NCBI RefSeq assembly: GCF_009914755.1
Contig: NC_060945.1
Source of the DNA: the human T2T-CHM13v2.0 reference genome, Homo sapiens
Reading direction: 5' to 3' (one strand)
DNA length: 64,000 nt
Positions 35,202-59,938 of the stretch are shown piece by piece; the stretch's first letter is position 1, and every line of letters starts with the position of its first letter. A program made the translations under genes and the position numbers. The notes below the pieces were generated by a model. That model did not search any database and had not been told where the DNA came from. It worked only from the letters and a program-made list of their open reading frames with translations.

Positions 35202-35428
35202 CTGACTCCCACTTTTATGACAGAAGGAAAGAAACTTCCATGTCCTTTAAGCCACTGCTATTTTGATTTTTTTCTCTTGCTTGCTGCTGAGCCTAATCCT
35301 AGTTGGTTTTCCTTTTTTTGTTGTTTTTTTCCCTAATCTTGATGACCCTCTCCCTTCTCTGTCTTTCCCTGTATGAGAACTTCTGGGGTTTGGATGCAGG
35401 GTGTGAGCCAGAATCTGAATGCTGCTCA

Positions 35429-35763
35429 GGTCTTGGCCATGAAGCTGGGGAACAGGAGGAGGGAGGTCTCGGCCATGAAGCTGGGGAACAGGAGGAGGGA
35501 GGTCTCGGCCATGAAGCTGGGGAACAGGAGGAGGGAGGTCTCGGCCATGAAGCTGGGGAACAGGAGGAGGGAGGTCTCGGCCATGAAGCTGGGGAACAGG
35601 AGGAGGGAGGTCTCGGCCATGAAGCTGGGGAACAGGAGGAGGGAGGTCTCGGCCATGAAGCTGGGGAACAGGAGGAGGGAGGTCTCGGCCATGAAGCTGG
35701 GGAACAGGAGGAGGGAGGTCTTGGCCATGAAGCTGGGGAACAGGAGGAGGGAGGTCTTGGCCA
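35429..35763. repeat. Near-perfect 36-bp VNTR x 9.3
   Basis: ggtctcggccatgaagctggggaacaggaggaggga; internal copies identical. Confidence 0.97.
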
Positions 35764-36182
35764 GTGACTCAACTGCTGGTTCTCATTTAAAGCATTTGGG
35801 AAACTAAAAAAGTAGACACAGGTCCCAGGCCACACCCCAGGCCTACACACAGAATCTCTAGAGTTGGGTCCCAGGCCCCTGAGCTGGTCATCAGGTGACT
35901 GTTGGTCAAGGTGCTGGGACAACCTGCTTCTCCTCACTCTTCATTTTCTTAATTTCCTGGGAAGAACGGGTCAGCCTATTTCTTTCACCCTATAAGAAAT
36001 AGCATATGTGTGAAATATGTTCTCATTAATAGATAATGTGTTCTTTCATGAATAGAAATTAAACTTCCTCCTTCATTCATTGATATCATAGGGAATGTCA
36101 TGACTAGGGGGTGAAAAGCACTAGACTTGGACTTGGGACACCTGAATTTGATTATAGGCTCTGACACTTATGAGCTGTATGG

Positions 36183-41541: not shown

Positions 41542-41723
41542 GTGAGCCTCCACATGCAGAAGCAGGCCTGGGTGCCGGTTATGTGGTCCTTATTGTGGTG
41601 GCCATCTTCGTGCTGGTGGCGGGAACAGCCACCCTTCTGATCGTGCGCTACCAGAGAATGAATGGGAGATACAACTTTAAAATCCAGTCCCACAACTTCA
41701 GCTACCAGGTGTTCTACGAATAG
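41542..41723 (+). CDS. UMODL1: UMODL1 last coding exon: TM helix and cytoplasmic tail, stop TAG 41721-41723; exon probably runs to the donor at 41744
   Basis: ccgag|GT GAG CCT...; GEPPHAEAGLGAGYVVLIVVAIFVLVAGTATLLIVRYQRMNGRYNFKIQSHNFSYQVFYE*. Confidence 0.93.
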
Positions 41724-41885
41724 GAGGCGCAGGCTGACAGGAAGGTGGGTGTGGAGTGGGGTGGGAGGTGCAGGCTGACAGGAGGGTGGGTGCGGAGTGG
41801 GGTGGGAGGTGTAGGCTGACAGGAAGGTGGGTGTGGAGTGGGGTAGGAGGTGCAGGCTGATAAGAAGGTGGGTGCGGAGTGGGGG
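41722..41885 (+). repeat. G-rich 41-bp tandem repeat x 4 containing the last 5' splice site
   Basis: Yaggctga at 41730, 41771, 41812, 41853; GTGGGT donors at 41745, 41786, 41827, 41868. Confidence 0.93.
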
Positions 41886-42640
41886 CATCTGATGTGCATG
41901 TCCTGCCTTGCCATCCATGGTGATGGGGACGGCCAGCAGGATTCAGCCAAGGGTAGATATGTGTGTGTCTGTGTTTTGTGGCCCTTTACGGAGCGTGCAG
42001 CCTCCCTTCTGAAAAAGCAACCAGGAGCAGGCAGAGAGGGGAAACTACAGGTAGGTTGGTGAAGGTTCGATTGCTTCACACACCCACTGGACTGGCTCCA
42101 CGATACCAGCGGCAGTGCTATATGGGTGACCACAGGACCCAGGGGCCCACCACAAATCCCATCTCTGCCACCCACTCTCTTGACCACCCGGGCAAGGTCC
42201 TGAGCCTCTTGGTGCCTCGGTTTCATCATTTGTAAAAGAAACCATGGTAACATTTCCGGCCACGTGGAGGGTGTGAGATTTAAATGGGAAGATGCCCAAG
42301 AGGCCCCGCTATGGGGTCTGACACCCTCAATTGCTGGTGGATCCTAACGATGGACCTCGGCCGAGTGTCCCTGAAACCTGGTGCTCGTAGGGATTGTCAC
42401 GTGTGGTGTGGATGCCACAGTGGACCCCCCACACCTTGCTGCTCATGCCCGCAGCCCCGACTTATGTATGACCTTTTGAGGCTGAAGATGCTTCTCTGAT
42501 CTGCCCTGTGGACTTTTGTTTTTCCTGGGCCTGCACATAGTTCACCACAAATGAATGACAAGCATTATGGAGGGCAGTATGGTTAGTATAAACCTTCAGT
42601 GGGAAACACCAAGACTGGGACTTTTGTAAAGATTTTCAGA

Positions 42641-42936
42641 TTTTTTTTTTTTTTGAGATGGAGTTTTGCTCTTGTTGCCCAGGTTGGAGTGCAGTGGTGC
42701 GATCTTGGCTCACCACAACCTCCACCTCCCAGGTTAAAGCGATTCTCCTGTCTCAGCCTCCTGAGTAGCTGGGATTACAGGCATGCGCCACCACACCCAG
42801 CTAGTTTTGTATTTTTAGTAGATACAGGGTTTCTCCATGTTGGTCAGGCTGGTCTCCAACTCCTGACCTCAGGTGATCCACCCGTCTCGGCCTCTCAAAG
42901 TGCTGGGATTACAGGCGTGAGCCACCGTGCCCGGCC
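42641..42936 (-). mobile_element. Alu (AluSp/Sq-like)
   Basis: Full reverse Alu. Confidence 0.95.
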
Positions 42937-42955
42937 AAATTTTGAGATTTTTCTA

Positions 42956-43613
<658 letters not shown>

Positions 43614-43637
43614 AACTGCCCACCCTCTCAGCCAACA

Positions 43638-45683
43638 GGAGAACAAGGAAAGACGAGAGGCCAATTTTCCCTCGATGTTTTAATTTCAAGGAGGGGGACA
43701 TCCAGCATGACCCAGCACCGACCCACCAGATGTCCTTAGAAAGCTAGTGGGATAGTGTTGGCCTCATCGCTGGGATTCGCATCTTAAATATTAAGTAAAA
43801 GGCACTGACATTTCCTCGTAACTCTATCTAGGGAGGTGACTGGTCTCTAGCACTGGTCCCGTCTATGCTGTAAGGGTCCTGAGACCCCAGAATACTGCGC
43901 ATGTTAGTTACCAGGAGTCCTGGCAGGAGAGACGGGAAAGACAAAGCTAACACAAGCGTCCCCCTCACATGGGCAGAATCACTTCCACAAGCGGGTGGCG
44001 TTTTCTTTGAAGTTGCCCAGCAAGGGCAGCATGGAGGTTGCCTTTTGGAAACGTGTGCTGTAGTCTGGGCTTTGCTGGTGACCTGGGAGGATTGGCTTGA
44101 GTTCTCTGGGCCCCATTTCCTCATTTTAAGATTGGAGCCAGTGTCTACTACACTTTGCTGAGTTGTTTCAAAAATCTGTTATCTCAAGAAAATAAGGACC
44201 TGAGCACAGGAAAGATGGGCTGGGCTGGAGAAGCTGCCTGCCCGACGAAGAGGGGGTGGGCTGATGTTGACAATGTCTGTTGTTTCCCAACATCCCCGTG
44301 AGGTTGTGCTGTTATTAGCATCCTGTGTTATAGATGGGAATCCAGGGCAGAAAGGGATAGACGTCCCAGGTCACGTGGCTAGGAGGTCCAGGGCAAGAAG
44401 GGATAGGTGTCCCAGGTCACGTGGCTAGGAGGTCCAGGGCAGGAAGGGATGTGTCCCAGGTCACGTGGTTGGGAGGTCCAGGGCAGGAAGGGATAGGCCT
44501 CCCAGGTCACATGGCTGGGAGGTGGCCGAGCTGGGGCTGCATGGGATTTCCGTTTGGCTCTGGGGTCAGCTCTCTTAGCTACCAAGCTTAGAGCCTTTCT
44601 TACACTAGTGTTCACATGACTGATGGACCCTTAGAACAATGCCCCTTGCCTTTCCCCTTCATCAGAGACCCGGAGAATTTGTATTTTAGCAGCTGTGCAA
44701 GGGGATCCACAATTCTTAATTCTTGCAGTGGGGACACCAGGTGTCCCAGTTGAGAGGCAGCAACTGTTGTGGTTACAGGGAAGGAGCCTTCCCAGGACCC
44801 CTGAGCCTCCCCGGGAGGCAGGTGCTGCTGCTCAATTGTGGTCTGGGTCCTCAGCCACCTCCGGGGATCCCAAAGGGGCAGGGAACAACAGCGAAGTTTC
44901 AGTTCAACTTTACACTCTAATAGTGAAAAATAAGGAAGCTTCCTCAGTTTGGTAGCTTTTGGCCTCTGGTTTGGGGCCCATGGGGTTTGGGCCATGAAGA
45001 CCCCCTCCTCACCAACCCCATTGCCTCCCATCCTGGGCAGGAGACATTGTCAATACCAGCCCGCCCCCTCTTCGTCAGGCAGGCAGCTTCCCCAGCCAAG
45101 CCCGTCTTCCCTGTGCTCAGGTCCTTATTTTCTTGAGATAACAGATTTTTGAAACAACTCAGCAAAGTATAGTAGACACTGGCTCCAATCTTAAAATGAG
45201 GAAATGGGGCCCAGAGAACTCAAGCCAATCCTCCCAGGTCACCAGCAAAGCCCAGACTACAGCACACGTTTCCAAAAGGCAACCTCCATGCTGCCCTTGC
45301 TGGGCAACTTCAGAGAAAACACCACCCGCCTGTGGATGTGATTCTGCCCATGTGAGGGGGATGCTTGTGTTAGCTTTGTCTTTCCCGTCTCTCCTGCCAG
45401 GACTCCTGGTAACTAACATACGCAGTATTCTGGGGTCTCAGGACCCTTACAGCATAGACAGGGCCAGTGCTAGAGGCCAGTCACCTCCCTAGATAGAGTT
45501 ACGAGGAAATGTCAGTGCCTTTTACTTAATATTTAAGATGCGAATCCCAGCGATGAGGCCAACACTATCCCGCTAGCTTTCTAAGGAAATCTGGTGTATT
45601 GGTGCTGGGTCATGCTGGATGTCCCTTTCCTCGAAATTAAAACATCCGAGGGAAAACTGGCCTCTTGTCTTTCTTTGTTCTCC
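43638..45683. repeat. Large inverted repeat: arms 43638-44278 and 45042-45683, spacer about 763 bp
   Basis: Mirror ORFs 43828-44124(-) and 45196-45492(+) are nearly identical; arm ends traced by hand. Confidence 0.96.
44341..44525. repeat. About 46-bp tandem repeat x 4 (MIR-like core amplified) in the inverted-repeat spacer
   Basis: tccagggcagRaagggatag..tcccaggtcacgtggctaggagg. Confidence 0.88.
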
Positions 45684-46157
45684 CGGGGCTCCTGTCTTTC
45701 GAAGTGAGAACTGTCTCACCAGTTCTAAAGTTCCTGCAGACATCTGCTCTTTGAAAACCATCAGCCAACCCACCCACCCCCACCAGGTCGACCCTTGGGC
45801 AGCCCCACTCAGAGATGTTCCCAGAGTCCTGGTGGGTTCTCCACGGATGGTGCAAAGGTGCAGGGGCCCCAGCTGTGCTCGTCTGGCTCAGGTATCTTCA
45901 CCAGCCACCCCCACCAGTTGGCGTGTCAGGAGCATCGCTCACCTGAGGGCAGGCACAGCCCCATGGTCCCCGTTCCACTGGGCACTCTGGGAGTGGCTGC
46001 CTTTTCATTAGGGGCTTGATCTGTCCCTCTCCAGTAAACATAGACGCCATGTCCTCGGGTTGGTGTTTCCTCCACTACCCCTCCTCCTGGGGTTTTCTGT
46101 ATTAACTTTACCTTTCCTGCGTGCAAGCTGACCCAGGTGACCTCTTCCTCCACACAG

Positions 46158-49680: not shown

Positions 49681-50467
49681 CTGGAGAATTACTGGGGCTT
49701 TCCATGGGCCCTCTGGCCCAGGTTGCATCTCTCCATGCTGGCCACTAGATGGCGACATTAGCTGGAGTCCACGCTGGAAACCGAATGTCCCCTGAGTTTC
49801 CGCAGCAACCACATCCCTGGGTTCTCTTGTTTGTTCTCTTTCACTGGATTTGAGCCTCTTGCGTGTCTGAAATTGTTCTGCAGACCTGCAGGCTCCGGGG
49901 CACATGTGTGCAAAGGTGGTGCCCTGGAGGCCCTGTAAATAGCTCAGAAAGTGAGGCTGGTCTTCTTCAGAGACTGAGTGATTGCGAAGTGCAGGACAAA
50001 TGAGTCTATGTGGGGGCCACAGCACGGATGTCCACCCTCCCATCTGGATTTCCCAAGAATGGGAGACATCTTTTCCCTCCCTTCCCGTTTCTGGGAGGAC
50101 AGGGGCAGATGGACAGGCGAGTAAGACAGGTGGCAGGGAGCCAGCAGCCCTAGGAGCTGGTGCTGGGGAGGCCCAGGTGAGATCCCTGTGGCTCAGAAGA
50201 GGACCTCTGCATGTGGAAGGGACGCCCGCAATGCCCAGTGACACCTCTCTCTATTGTGGAGGGTGACGGAGTCTGCTGAGGTAGCCACATAAGCACCTAA
50301 ACCAGAAGTGAGTATCTAAAACGGCCTTGCATGCCATAAGTCATCAGATAAGAGGGGCTGGACAGGGGCTCCCCAAGCCTGTCCTCAGCTGTGACCAGGT
50401 GGCTAGCAACCCTCTTTAGTTTGAGCACCTGCTTTGTCCCAGAGAGGGAGTATTAAATGTCCGCTGT

Positions 50468-50902
50468 TCACCCCCCACGCCCCATCTCTGTCCCTCCTGG
50501 GGAGGAAGGCTGTGGTGGGAGTCAACCCTCGCATCCCATCTCTGTCCCTCTTGGGGAGGAGGGCTGTGGTGGGAGTCAACCCTCGCATCCCATCTCTGTC
50601 CCTCTTGGGGAGGAGGGCTGTGGTGGGAGTCACCCCCCGCACTGTGTCTCTGTCCCTCCTGGGGAGGAGGGCTGAGGTTGGAGTCACCCCCTGCACCCTG
50701 TGTCTGTCCCTCCTGGGGAGGAGGGCTGCAGTGGGAGTCAATCCCCGCACCCCGTCTCTGTCCCTCCTGGGGAGGAGGGCTGTGGTGGGAGTCACCCCCC
50801 GCACCCTGTCTCTGTCCCTCCTGGGGAGGAGGGGTGCAGTGGGAGTCAATCCCCGCATCCCGTCTCTGTCCCTCCTGGGGAGGAGGGGTGCAGTGGGAGT
50901 CC
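50468..50902. repeat. 54-bp minisatellite x 8
   Basis: cYcYgtctctgtccctcctggggaggagggctgtggtgggagtcaMcccccgca; 18-aa periodicity in the ORF track. Confidence 0.95.
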
Positions 50903-52022
50903 CAAGATGCAGGCTCCTCCCAGTTCTCTGCTCACCTGTGCTGAGGCTCTGCGATCTGTGGAATGGGGCCGTGTTGCAGGCTCTTGTAAGGATCAGTGTT
51001 GCCCACCGAGGGCCCAGCACACAGGCTCCTAAGGTGACGAAGCACACATCCTGCTGCCAAAGTCACAGCAGCAGCGGCGCCCTCAGACGGGCCCGTGGGC
51101 CTCCTCCGCACAGTGTCGGGTGCTGAGTGCCTCTTGTGGGCTCTGGGCTTCGCGTCCAGCACTGCCAAAGTTGCCCAGGTTTCACGGGAAGCTCGCGGCA
51201 GGCCGGGCCCAGCAGCCTTCCGGGAGAAGGACACTACGCATCTGCGGCCCTGCATGCCCCCAGGAGCCCATGGGCTCCAGCACGGGGGTGGGCAAGGGGC
51301 GAGAGTCTGGCCCCTCATCTCCTGGCAGATTTCAAAGTGTGGTCAGAAACATAGCTGGACTGGGCAACTGGCTGAAGTGGAAGTCATCATTCAGCTAATG
51401 AGGCTTGATCTTTTCTCCATCCCCTGCTACTGCTGGTGTCTGTGCTGGCCTGGAGCTCACCCCACCTCACCCGGGCAGAGCAAAGGCCCTTGGCTGGCAG
51501 ATGCTGGAGGGTCTGTAAACTTGCTGGTGAATGCCCGGCTGTGGACACACAGCAGATGCCTGTCAAGGGAGAAGGAGCCAAGGAGAGCCCTGGGGATTCC
51601 CAAGAGCTTTAGGGTGTAGGGAAAATCGCCCAGGCAGGCTGATTCTGCGAGGCTTGTCCCTATAGCAGGAGATGGCCTGTGCGAAGTGGGACTCCTGGGA
51701 AGGAGCGATGAGGACTAGAGGGAAGGGGCAGCATGACTCCACAGGCTCTCACAAGGGACACAGCATGGACATGCTTCTGCCTGGATGCCCCTCTGAGTCG
51801 ACAGAGATCCATGTGCCCTGGCATCAAGGTCAGGCAGGGGAGACGTGCAGGGAGTGGAGTGGACACCAGAGGGGCAAGCACCACGGTGTGGACACCGAGG
51901 GGAGCCATGGGTCCTGGGGGTGGCCTGGGACTGGACTGTTGAGTCTTGGGTGGGCAGAAATCGTTCCCCTCATCAAGGACTGTAGATCCTCACTTGCGAC
52001 ACCCAGGACACCAAAGCGCTTC

Positions 52023-58333: not shown

Positions 58334-58912
58334 TGTGCTGGGGGCCCCCAGGACCACGCTTAGGCTTGATGCTTCTCTGGAAAGACTCACAGACCACAGA
58401 AGTCACAGTTTCTTACAGCAAAAGGAGGCAGATTAAAATCAGCAAATGAGAAAGTCACACAGGGTGGGGAGGGACCGGGTGCGAGCTTTCAGCTCCCCTC
58501 GCAGTGGGGTCACCAGTCAGCACCCGTTCCCTCAGCGTTGATGTGTGACAACACTCACGGTGCCTTGCCACCACCCTGGGAGCCCTGAGCCTTGGTGTCC
58601 ACATTTTTATTAGGGGTCAGCCATGAAGGCGTGGAGCACCCACATGGTTGCCCACGGCTTCTCAGCCCCCAGCCCCCAAGAGGTCAAAACTGTGACCCAG
58701 GACCCCAGAAGACCAAGCCAAACCTTTACCCTAAATCCCCTGGTTAGGGTAAACCGTCCAACAGGGCCCCAGGTCCCAGGTCTACAAAGACATGCTTGTC
58801 GGGCGGGATATTCCAAGGGCTTAGAGGTCATCACCAGGCCAAGCAGGAGCCAGTCCTGTGGAATGTGCAGGGTCTGGACACCCAGCCCCACTGAGTGAGC
58901 CCTTCCCCGCAC
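58334..58912. mobile_element. LTR element (MER21-like)
   Basis: ccccaggaccac...gactcacag...ttacagcaaaagga...aaaatcagcaaa motifs; family assignment from memory. Confidence 0.65.
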
Positions 58913-59756: not shown

Positions 59757-59938
59757 CACACATCGACGCTGAGGGAACGGGTGCTGACTGGTGACCCCAC
59801 TGCGAGAGGAGCTGAAAGCTTGCGCCCGGTCCCTCCCCACCCTGTGTGACTTTCTCATTTGCTGATTTTAATCTGCCTCCTTTTGCTGTAAGAAACTGTG
59901 ACTTCTGTGGTCTGTGAGTCTTTCCAGAGAAGCATCAA
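59757..59938 (-). repeat. 182-bp inverted copy of 58366-58547 flanked by a 28-bp direct repeat
   Basis: Reverse complement match read by hand; flanks 59728-59755 and 59939-59966. Confidence 0.93.

What the first reader, a model, noticed from the sequence alone, without database searches (positions are those of the whole stretch)
43638..45683. 641-bp non-Alu inverted repeat in the 3'UTR intron with a homogenised core and diverged edges
Seen: arms 43638-44278 and 45042-45683 surround a 763-bp spacer. By eye the outer ~120 bp differ at about 12 positions and the inner ~75 bp at about 8, but 44041-44210 differs from its partner at only 1 of about 170. Inference: an old duplication repeatedly homogenised by arm-to-arm gene conversion, the usual setting for a recurrent polymorphic micro-inversion of the spacer. 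In pre-mRNA it would fold into a long dsRNA stem (ADAR substrate, possibly endo-siRNA or an innate-immune ligand) and loop out 2 kb, 475 nt upstream of the terminal acceptor.
Basis: partly seen in the sequence, partly recalled or inferred. Interest (0 to 1): 0.7.

Follow-up and report, generated by a model that had tools for sequence, protein, structure and literature searches.

The report
Old inverted duplication, partly homogenised, in UMODL1
The last intron of the human UMODL1 gene holds a unique 641-base sequence that occurs again backwards 763 bases away; the two copies are much more alike in the middle than at their ends, as expected if they sometimes copy-correct each other, but no function or inversion was shown.

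Summary
Arms 43638-44278 and 45042-45683 align in reverse complement over 642 columns with 30 differences (95.3% identity). They flank a 763-bp spacer. The arm sequence occurs at only these two places in the genome, and the spacer occurs once.

Divergence is U-shaped and mosaic. The edges differ at about 10-12%, two blocks are nearly clean (0 of 95 and 1 of 203), and the block between them differs at 5.5%. The unevenness beats permutation (p 0.003-0.016; 0.008-0.027 when stratified by CpG) and also holds at non-CpG sites in fixed edge-versus-centre tests (p 0.004-0.027). Identity falls to about 25% immediately outside the arms.

My best reading is an old locus-specific inverted duplication that arm-to-arm gene conversion has partly homogenised.

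In the pre-mRNA the two arms are predicted to pair almost fully (625 of 641 columns; MFE -1580 against about -727 kcal/mol for controls). The structure is intronic, and I found no strand bias that would point to selection for pairing.

Inversion polymorphism, RNA editing and small RNAs could not be tested here. The catalogues I could read do not list the locus. It is a new member of a known kind, of low to moderate interest.

The parts
43638..44278 (.). Left arm of the inverted repeat (641 bp)
   Evidence: Gapped alignment. The genome holds only two places with this sequence. Identity falls to 5 of 20 and 21 of 100 just outside the outer end, against 18 of 20 just inside it.
45042..45683 (.). 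Right arm (642 bp, reverse complement of the left arm, with one extra base at 45647)
   Evidence: 95.3% identity, E = 1.8e-295.
44279..45041 (.). Spacer (763 bp), a single-copy sequence
   Evidence: The own-genome search finds 1 place only. There is no arm-like homology at its ends: 4 of 20 and 24 of 100 identical in register.
44341..44523 (.). 46-bp minisatellite inside the spacer (4 copies, 89% matches)
   Evidence: Tandem Repeats Finder and the repeat finder family D1.
43749..43843 (.). Clean block 1 of the arms: 0 differences in 95 bp (partner 45477-45571)
44008..44210 (.). Clean block 2: 1 difference in 203 bp (at 44151). It includes the longest identical tract, 143 bp (44008-44150). Partner 45110-45312.
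43638..43748 (.). Diverged outer edge: 11 substitutions plus 1 indel in 111 bp (partner 45572-45683)
44211..44278 (.). Diverged inner edge: 8 substitutions in 68 bp (partner 45042-45109)
41745..46157 (+). Host: the last intron of UMODL1 (NM_001004416.3), which lies in the 3'UTR 21 nt after the stop codon
   Evidence: The hub's annotation. GT at 41745, AG at 46156-46157 and TAG at 41721-41723 were read.

Best explanation
This is a locus-specific inverted duplication of about 641 bp of unique intronic DNA. It is old, and the two copies have since been patch-wise homogenised by non-allelic (arm-to-arm) gene conversion.

Dating rests on substitution rates that I recall rather than looked up. The edges are about 10% diverged. 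That corresponds to roughly 55 My at 1e-9 per site per year, with a range of 25-110 My across the usual rates.

Conversion is less effective next to the homology boundaries, so the edges keep something close to the true age. Interior tracts were reset at different times: 0 of 95 and 1 of 203 recently, 9 of 164 longer ago.

Shown here: the architecture, the uniqueness of the sequence, the sharp boundaries, the U-shaped mosaic divergence, and the predicted folding. Inferred: gene conversion as the cause, and the age.

When UMODL1 is transcribed, the arms should pair into a stem of about 640 bp (97.5% paired if G-U pairs are counted) with a 763-nt loop. That is a plausible nuclear ADAR substrate, but it is removed with the intron. 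I see no sign that the structure is selected or has a function. Inversion of the spacer by crossover between the arms is possible but should be rare.
For: - Architecture and uniqueness.
- Sensitivity control: the same own-genome search picked up old dispersed copies at 73-92% identity for another repeat in the window (31 partial hits). The two-place result for these arms is therefore informative.
- Uneven divergence: uniform permutation p = 0.0033-0.016; CpG-stratified p = 0.008-0.027; scan 0 of 300; fixed symmetric edges against centre p = 0.0004-0.002 for all sites and 0.004-0.027 for non-CpG sites.
- Both edges are elevated, which is what the gene-conversion degeneration model describes (PMC2588116, passages).
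- The clean blocks (95 bp, and 143 + 59 bp) are of the size of mammalian conversion tracts. The statement that tracts are 'a few hundred base pairs' comes from Aguado 2014.
- Boundaries are sharp: 85-90% identity inside against about 25% outside. There is no further homology in the flanks.
- No coding constraint: the 116-aa open frames present in both arms differ at 8 residues for 10 nucleotide differences, and Pfam gives 0 hits for 6 frames.
- Folding: MFE -1580.4 kcal/mol, against -723 to -730 for three controls with the right arm shuffled. 625 of 874 pairs are arm-to-arm, with helices up to 151 bp.
Against: - There are only two sequences and no outgroup, so conversion is inferred from spatial pattern alone.
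- With the 19 non-CpG differences alone, the run and gap statistics are not significant (p = 0.066-0.31).
- CpG columns are denser at the edges (one search list), which explains part of the contrast.
- Purifying selection on the centre of both copies would give the same picture and cannot be excluded without other species.
- There is no excess of G/C alleles in either arm (16 against 12). No bias signal is seen, though without polarisation this is a weak test.
Confidence: 0.6

Rival explanations
1. A single younger inverted duplication (overall 4.7% JC distance, about 23 My at 1e-9 per site per year) that has diverged at one rate. The uneven spacing of differences would then be chance plus CpG hypermutability, with no gene conversion.
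For: 11 of 30 differences are at CpG, and CpG columns are denser at the edges. Non-CpG-only permutation gives p = 0.11, 0.066 and 0.31.
Against: CpG-stratified permutation is still p = 0.008-0.027, and the scan gives 0 of 300. Edge-versus-centre tests at non-CpG sites give p = 0.004-0.027 for four pre-set edge widths. Both edges are elevated, not just one.
Confidence: 0.15
2. The centre of the arms carries a functional element (an enhancer or a structured RNA) that purifying selection conserves in both copies. The centre stays alike because neither copy changes, not because the copies correct each other.
For: A low-divergence interior is also what constraint would give. The region is unique sequence.
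Against: No Rfam family matches in the inverted repeat and no Pfam family in 6 frames. There are 8 amino-acid changes for 10 nucleotide differences in the shared open frame. The clean region is interrupted by a 5.5% block. There is no strand bias in wobble-compatible transitions: 13 of 25 keep a G-U pair in the sense RNA and 12 of 25 in the antisense RNA (derived). Pairing of the sense transcript is therefore not visibly selected.
Confidence: 0.1
3. A non-autonomous DNA transposon or foldback element with about 640-bp terminal inverted repeats.
For: The overall shape: long inverted ends around a short interior, 2046 bp in total.
Against: Only these two arm copies and one spacer copy exist in the whole genome. 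The same search finds old repeats at 73-92% identity elsewhere. No target-site duplication is visible at 43630-43637 against 45684-45691 (read). No transposase-like frame was found.
Confidence: 0.03
4. In addition to conversion, the spacer is a segregating or recurrently toggling micro-inversion in humans or apes, produced by crossover between the arms.
For: Inverted repeats of at least 200 bp flank 132 of 183 sequence-resolved balanced inversions (preprint 10.1101/2021.12.20.472354). Signs of conversion imply that the arms do recombine.
Against: The longest identical tract is 143 bp. Validated cases used repeats of 1.6-24 kb, and 23 of 32 recurrent ones had repeats of at least 10 kb. The locus is not in Giner-Delgado 2019, where files 1-12 of 18 were searched and the only chr21 inversion lies at 28.0 Mb. 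It is not in the held, truncated HGSVC3 tables either. The largest catalogue (Porubsky 2022) could not be read.
Confidence: 0.07

Closest known systems
Arm-to-arm gene conversion in sex-chromosome palindromes and large inverted repeats. Hallast et al. 2013 on a human Y palindrome was seen only as a reference title. Rozen 2003 and Warburton 2004 are recalled.
   Same: Two inverted arms around a unique spacer, with the copies kept alike by intrachromosomal conversion and inversion of the spacer as the rarer crossover outcome.
   Different: Here the arms are 641 bp at 95.3% identity. Palindrome arms are kilobases to megabases at more than 99.9% identity (recalled). This repeat is autosomal and intronic, has no genes in its arms, and is only patchily homogenised.
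Gene-conversion degeneration pattern of duplicated blocks (Osada and Innan 2008, PMC2588116, passages read)
   Same: Divergence between paralogues is elevated at the block edges and low in the middle, which is explained by weaker conversion near the homology boundaries.
   Different: The pattern was described for Drosophila gene duplicates, mostly tandem. Here it is a small non-coding inverted pair in human, and its boundaries are sharp rather than gradually fading.
Human polymorphic inversions mediated by inverted repeats (Aguado 2014, PMC3961182; Giner-Delgado 2019, PMC6748972; Porubsky preprint 10.1101/2021.12.20.472354)
   Same: The architecture: an inverted repeat, a spacer, then the inverted repeat again.
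   Different: Those repeats are 1.6-24 kb or mostly at least 10 kb for recurrent cases. Here both orientations have not been observed and the locus is not listed in what I could read.
Long, nearly perfect inverted duplicated sequences in pre-mRNAs (Barak 2020, PMC7006430; dsRNAscan preprint, PMC11838218)
   Same: An intronic stem longer than 300 bp in a weakly or tissue-restrictedly expressed gene. 96% of genic predicted dsRNAs are intronic.
   Different: Identity is 95.3%, just under Barak's cut-off of more than 96%, and the locus is not among the 3 chr21 rows of their Table S8 of 197. It would pass dsRNAscan's '>96% paired' rule by my own count (97.5%), but their Table S5 could not be read. 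Most such stems are made of repeats, whereas this one is unique sequence.

Membership tests
Inverted duplication undergoing arm-to-arm gene conversion (palindrome-like) | Two arms in inverted orientation with high identity around a spacer | tested here: met
   642 columns, 95.3% identity, 763-bp spacer.
Inverted duplication undergoing arm-to-arm gene conversion (palindrome-like) | Arms are locus-specific sequence, not copies of a dispersed repeat | tested here: met
   2 places in the whole genome. Sensitivity control. No further hit in the window or in 11 other loci.
Inverted duplication undergoing arm-to-arm gene conversion (palindrome-like) | Spatially heterogeneous divergence (tracts; edges more diverged than centre) | tested here: met
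.
Inverted duplication undergoing arm-to-arm gene conversion (palindrome-like) | Concerted evolution: arms within a species more alike than orthologous arms between species | not testable with these tools
   No other primate or human assembly can be reached from these tools.
Segmental duplication (formal definition, recalled: at least 1 kb and at least 90% identity) | Length of at least 1 kb | tested here: not met
   The arms are 641 and 642 bp. It would therefore be absent from segmental-duplication tracks.
Polymorphic inversion mediated by recombination between inverted repeats (NAHR) | [quoted passage not shown] | tested here: met
.
Polymorphic inversion mediated by recombination between inverted repeats (NAHR) | Both orientations observed among haplotypes | not testable with these tools
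   Only one haplotype is available. The readable catalogues do not list the locus. Porubsky 2022 is not held.
Long nearly perfect pre-mRNA dsRNA (Barak 2020 criteria) | Inverted duplicated sequence longer than 300 bp within one RefSeq pre-mRNA | tested here: met
   641 bp, with both arms in the intron 41745-46157.
Long nearly perfect pre-mRNA dsRNA (Barak 2020 criteria) | Identity above 96% | tested here: not met
   95.3%. This agrees with its absence from Table S8.
ADAR-edited dsRNA / endo-siRNA hairpin locus | A-to-I editing clusters or 21-22-nt small RNAs mapping to the arms | not testable with these tools
   No expression or editing data are at hand. A literature search for UMODL1 with 'RNA editing' gave 1 irrelevant paper.
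DNA transposon with long terminal inverted repeats | Multiple genomic copies and a target-site duplication | tested here: not met
   (no other copy). The flanks read show no direct repeat.

The most novel reading that the evidence does not exclude
The 763-bp spacer is a segregating or recurrently toggling micro-inversion in humans or apes, driven by a 641-bp repeat. That would place it among the smallest inversions mediated by recombination between inverted repeats. The same repeat would also yield a hyper-edited dsRNA of unique sequence, or small RNAs, in UMODL1-expressing cells (olfactory epithelium, activated T cells, ovary).
Probability: 0.07. Interest if true: 0.45.

Novelty: new member of a known kind. 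Interest (0 to 1): 0.25.

Why it matters
If the reading is right, this is a compact, fully sequence-resolved example of concerted evolution in a small non-coding inverted pair. The undisturbed edges act as an internal clock, and the interior tracts were reset at different times.

Such loci fall below the 1-kb threshold for segmental duplications, so the usual tracks miss them. They could help calibrate how short and how diverged an inverted repeat can be and still undergo conversion or inversion in the human germ line.

The locus is also a candidate member of the small class of very long stems made of unique sequence in human pre-mRNAs. No effect on UMODL1 itself is indicated.

Tried and rejected
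1. Transposon with long terminal repeats: rejected. There are only two arm copies and one spacer copy in the genome, and no target-site duplication.

2. My by-eye impression that part of the arm and part of the spacer resemble an old SINE: not supported. The reverse complement of the arm against the spacer gives only a 13-nt match, equal to the best of 200 shuffles. Permissive BLAST finds no other copies. I make no claim about it.

3. Hidden extension of the homology beyond the arms, or across the neighbouring dispersed repeat: none. The outer-flank score is 15 against a shuffle maximum of 18, and identity in register is about 25%.

4. Coding or RNA-family content: Pfam gives 0 hits for 6 frames. 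Rfam has nothing inside the inverted repeat at E up to 1.

5. Selection for sense-strand pairing: there is no strand bias in G-U-compatible transitions (13 against 12 of 25).

6. Inversion catalogues:
- Aguado 2014 main text has no chr21 entry.
- Giner-Delgado 2019 supplements, files 1-12 of 18, list only HsInv0045 at 28.0 Mb.
- The HGSVC3 supplementary workbook, truncated as stored, has no matching coordinates or gene name.
- Porubsky 2022 and Vicente-Salvador 2017 are not held.
- bioRxiv supplements are closed.

7. dsRNA catalogues: Barak Table S8 has no row for the locus. dsRNAscan Table S5 is not readable. The supplement of Chen 2017 is too large to read.

8. Literature on the locus: searches for UMODL1 with 'inversion', with 'RNA editing', and with 'inverted repeat', 'dsRNA', 'hairpin' or 'palindrome' returned nothing about this structure.

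Full report
**What is there**

The window holds a clean inverted repeat. A gapped local alignment places the arms at 43638-44278 and 45042-45683, the latter as reverse complement. The alignment has 642 columns and 30 differences: 25 transitions, 4 transversions and one single-base indel. Eleven of the differences are at CpG. Identity is 95.3%, and the spacer is 44279-45041, 763 bp.

The annotation context also checks out. The stop codon TAG sits at 41721-41723, the intron donor GT at 41745, and the acceptor AG at 46156-46157. The repeat therefore lies in a 3'UTR intron and ends 475 nt before the last exon.

**Not a repeat family**

A search of the window's own 3.1-Gb genome with the left arm returns only the two arms. 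The spacer returns only itself. The search is sensitive enough for this to count: for a second small inverted repeat in the window it also returned 31 partial matches at 73-92% identity, and for the left flank it found 4102 first-look candidates.

Other checks agree:
- Permissive BLAST against the window and 11 other loci finds nothing more.
- Rfam sees Alu-like signal only at 42653-43219 and nothing in the repeat.
- Six open frames give no Pfam hit.
- No target-site duplication flanks the unit.

A transposon with long terminal repeats is therefore rejected.

**Boundaries**

The last 20-40 columns inside the arms are 85-90% identical. The next 20-100 positions outside, taken in register, are 21-25% identical, which is the random level. 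Local alignment of the outer flanks finds nothing above shuffles. The four ends are therefore real breakpoints and not faded homology.

The left arm starts 17-25 bp after the end of a high-copy dispersed repeat. All 40 scored copies of that repeat stop aligning at query positions 220-242, which is window 43599-43621. From memory this is a MaLR-type LTR in minus orientation. No tool here names repeat families.

**Divergence pattern**

| Segment | Differences | Length (bp) |
|---|---|---|
| 43638-43748 (outer edge) | 12 (11 substitutions + 1 indel) | 111 |
| 43749-43843 | 0 | 95 |
| 43844-44007 | 9 | 164 |
| 44008-44210 | 1 | 203 |
| 44211-44278 (inner edge) | 8 | 68 |

Tests of unevenness:
- Placing the 30 differences uniformly at random gives p = 0.013 for the longest gap, 0.0033 for the longest span with at most one difference, and 0.016 for the variance over eight bins.
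- Keeping the CpG and non-CpG classes separate gives 0.027, 0.008 and 0.021.
- With the 19 non-CpG differences alone, these run statistics lose significance (0.11, 0.066, 0.31).
- A likelihood scan picks 43752-44206 (10 of 455) against the rest (20 of 187). None of 300 permutations reaches the observed value.
- With symmetric edges fixed in advance at 60, 80, 100 or 120 columns, edge-versus-centre Fisher tests give p = 0.0004-0.002 for all sites and 0.004-0.027 for non-CpG sites.

The U shape is therefore real and is only partly a CpG effect.

**Interpretation**

Elevated paralogous divergence at the edges of a duplicated block, with high identity in the middle, is the published signature of interlocus gene conversion that weakens near the homology boundaries (Osada and Innan 2008, PMC2588116; passages read). 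The clean blocks here (95 bp, and 143 + 59 bp) match the 'few hundred base pairs' quoted for mammalian conversion tracts in Aguado 2014 (PMC3961182; passages).

I therefore read the locus as an old inverted duplication that arm-to-arm conversion has partly and repeatedly homogenised.

Jukes-Cantor distances:

| Region | JC distance | Age at 1e-9 per site per year |
|---|---|---|
| Whole arm | 0.047 | about 23 My |
| Edges | 0.110 | about 55 My |
| Centre (43752-44206) | 0.022 | about 11 My |
| 203-bp block | 0.005 | about 2.5 My |

With rates I recall (0.5, 1 and 2.2e-9 per site per year), the edges correspond to about 110, 55 and 25 My. These ages are rough inferences. No outgroup is available, so I cannot tell which arm is the copy, and no microhomology is legible at the diverged junctions.

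**Rivals**

- Chance plus CpG decay is weakened by the stratified and non-CpG tests.
- Constraint on the centre of both copies cannot be excluded without other species, but nothing supports it. The 116-aa frame that is open in both arms differs at 8 residues for 10 nucleotide differences. No RNA family matches. The low-divergence region is interrupted by a 5.5% block.
- Transitions that keep a G-U pair are split 13 to 12 between the sense and antisense RNA. This follows from 625 and 624 paired columns out of 641, with 612 identical. Pairing of the sense transcript is therefore not visibly protected.

**RNA**

The 2046-nt unit folds with an MFE of -1580.4 kcal/mol on the sense strand and -1552.5 on the antisense strand. 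Three controls with the right arm shuffled give -723 to -730. Of 874 pairs, 625 are arm-to-arm, with uninterrupted helices of 151, 127, 82 and 59 bp.

By length and pairing this belongs with the rare long stems of human pre-mRNAs:
- Barak 2020 lists 197 inverted duplicated sequences longer than 300 bp and above 96% identity in RefSeq pre-mRNAs. Only 20 of them are expressed above FPKM 0.01 (PMC7006430; passages).
- At 95.3% identity this locus falls just under that cut-off, and it is not among their three chr21 rows.
- The dsRNAscan preprint reports 2,018 stems longer than 300 bp and more than 96% paired. It finds 96% of genic dsRNAs in introns and only one long, highly paired stem in a 3'UTR (PMC11838218; passages).

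The stem is intronic, and UMODL1 expression is described as tissue-restricted: olfactory region, stimulated CD4 T cells and ovary in mouse (abstracts of PMC8874799 and PMC3542605). Nuclear editing is plausible, but a role as a cytoplasmic immune ligand is unlikely. None of this could be measured here.

**Inversion**

Crossover between the arms would flip the spacer. [quoted passage not shown]

The substrate is poor, however. The longest identical tract is 143 bp. Validated inversions mediated by inverted repeats used repeats of 1.6-24 kb. Of 32 recurrent inversions, 23 had repeats of at least 10 kb.

The locus is absent from what I could read:
- the main text of Aguado 2014;
- supplementary files 1-12 of 18 of Giner-Delgado 2019, where the only chr21 inversion is at 28.0 Mb;
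- the truncated HGSVC3 workbook.

Porubsky 2022 and its tables were not available, and these may bear on the claim. I put the chance of a currently segregating inversion at about 7%.

**Verdict**

The inversion, RNA-editing and immune-ligand extensions are untested, and the last of them is unlikely. The kind is known (small inverted duplications, concerted evolution, long intronic stems), but this particular locus appears undescribed in my searches. Interest is low to moderate.

Noticed in passing
window 58366-58547 and 59757-59938: A second small inverted repeat lies 12.7 kb downstream in intergenic DNA. Its arms are 182 nt with 4 mismatches (98%), and the spacer is 1209 bp. Unlike the UMODL1 repeat, its arms partly overlap an old dispersed repeat: 31 partial genomic matches at 73-92% identity over about 40-115 nt.
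   Followed up: partly
window 43380-43621: A high-copy dispersed repeat ends 17-25 bp before the left arm. It had 4102 first-look candidates, and the 40 scored copies are 78-83% identical. All alignments stop at query positions 220-242. From memory it looks like a MaLR-type LTR in minus orientation. This was not verified by any tool.
   Followed up: partly
window 44341-44523: A 46-bp minisatellite sits inside the spacer, with 4 copies at 89% matches. Its copy number may vary between haplotypes, which would change the spacer length.
   Followed up: no
window 42653-43233: Oppositely oriented Alu-like elements lie in the same intron, about 400 bp upstream of the repeat. The inverted pairs are 77% complementary (I2-I4), and there are SRP/Alu-type Rfam hits on both strands. 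They are a more conventional ADAR substrate in this intron.
   Followed up: no
window 35356-35799 and 50414-50953: Two tandem arrays. One has a 36-bp unit with 9 registered copies, mostly 98-99% alike. The other has a 54-bp unit with 7 copies, 72-89% alike. They are likely VNTRs.
   Followed up: no
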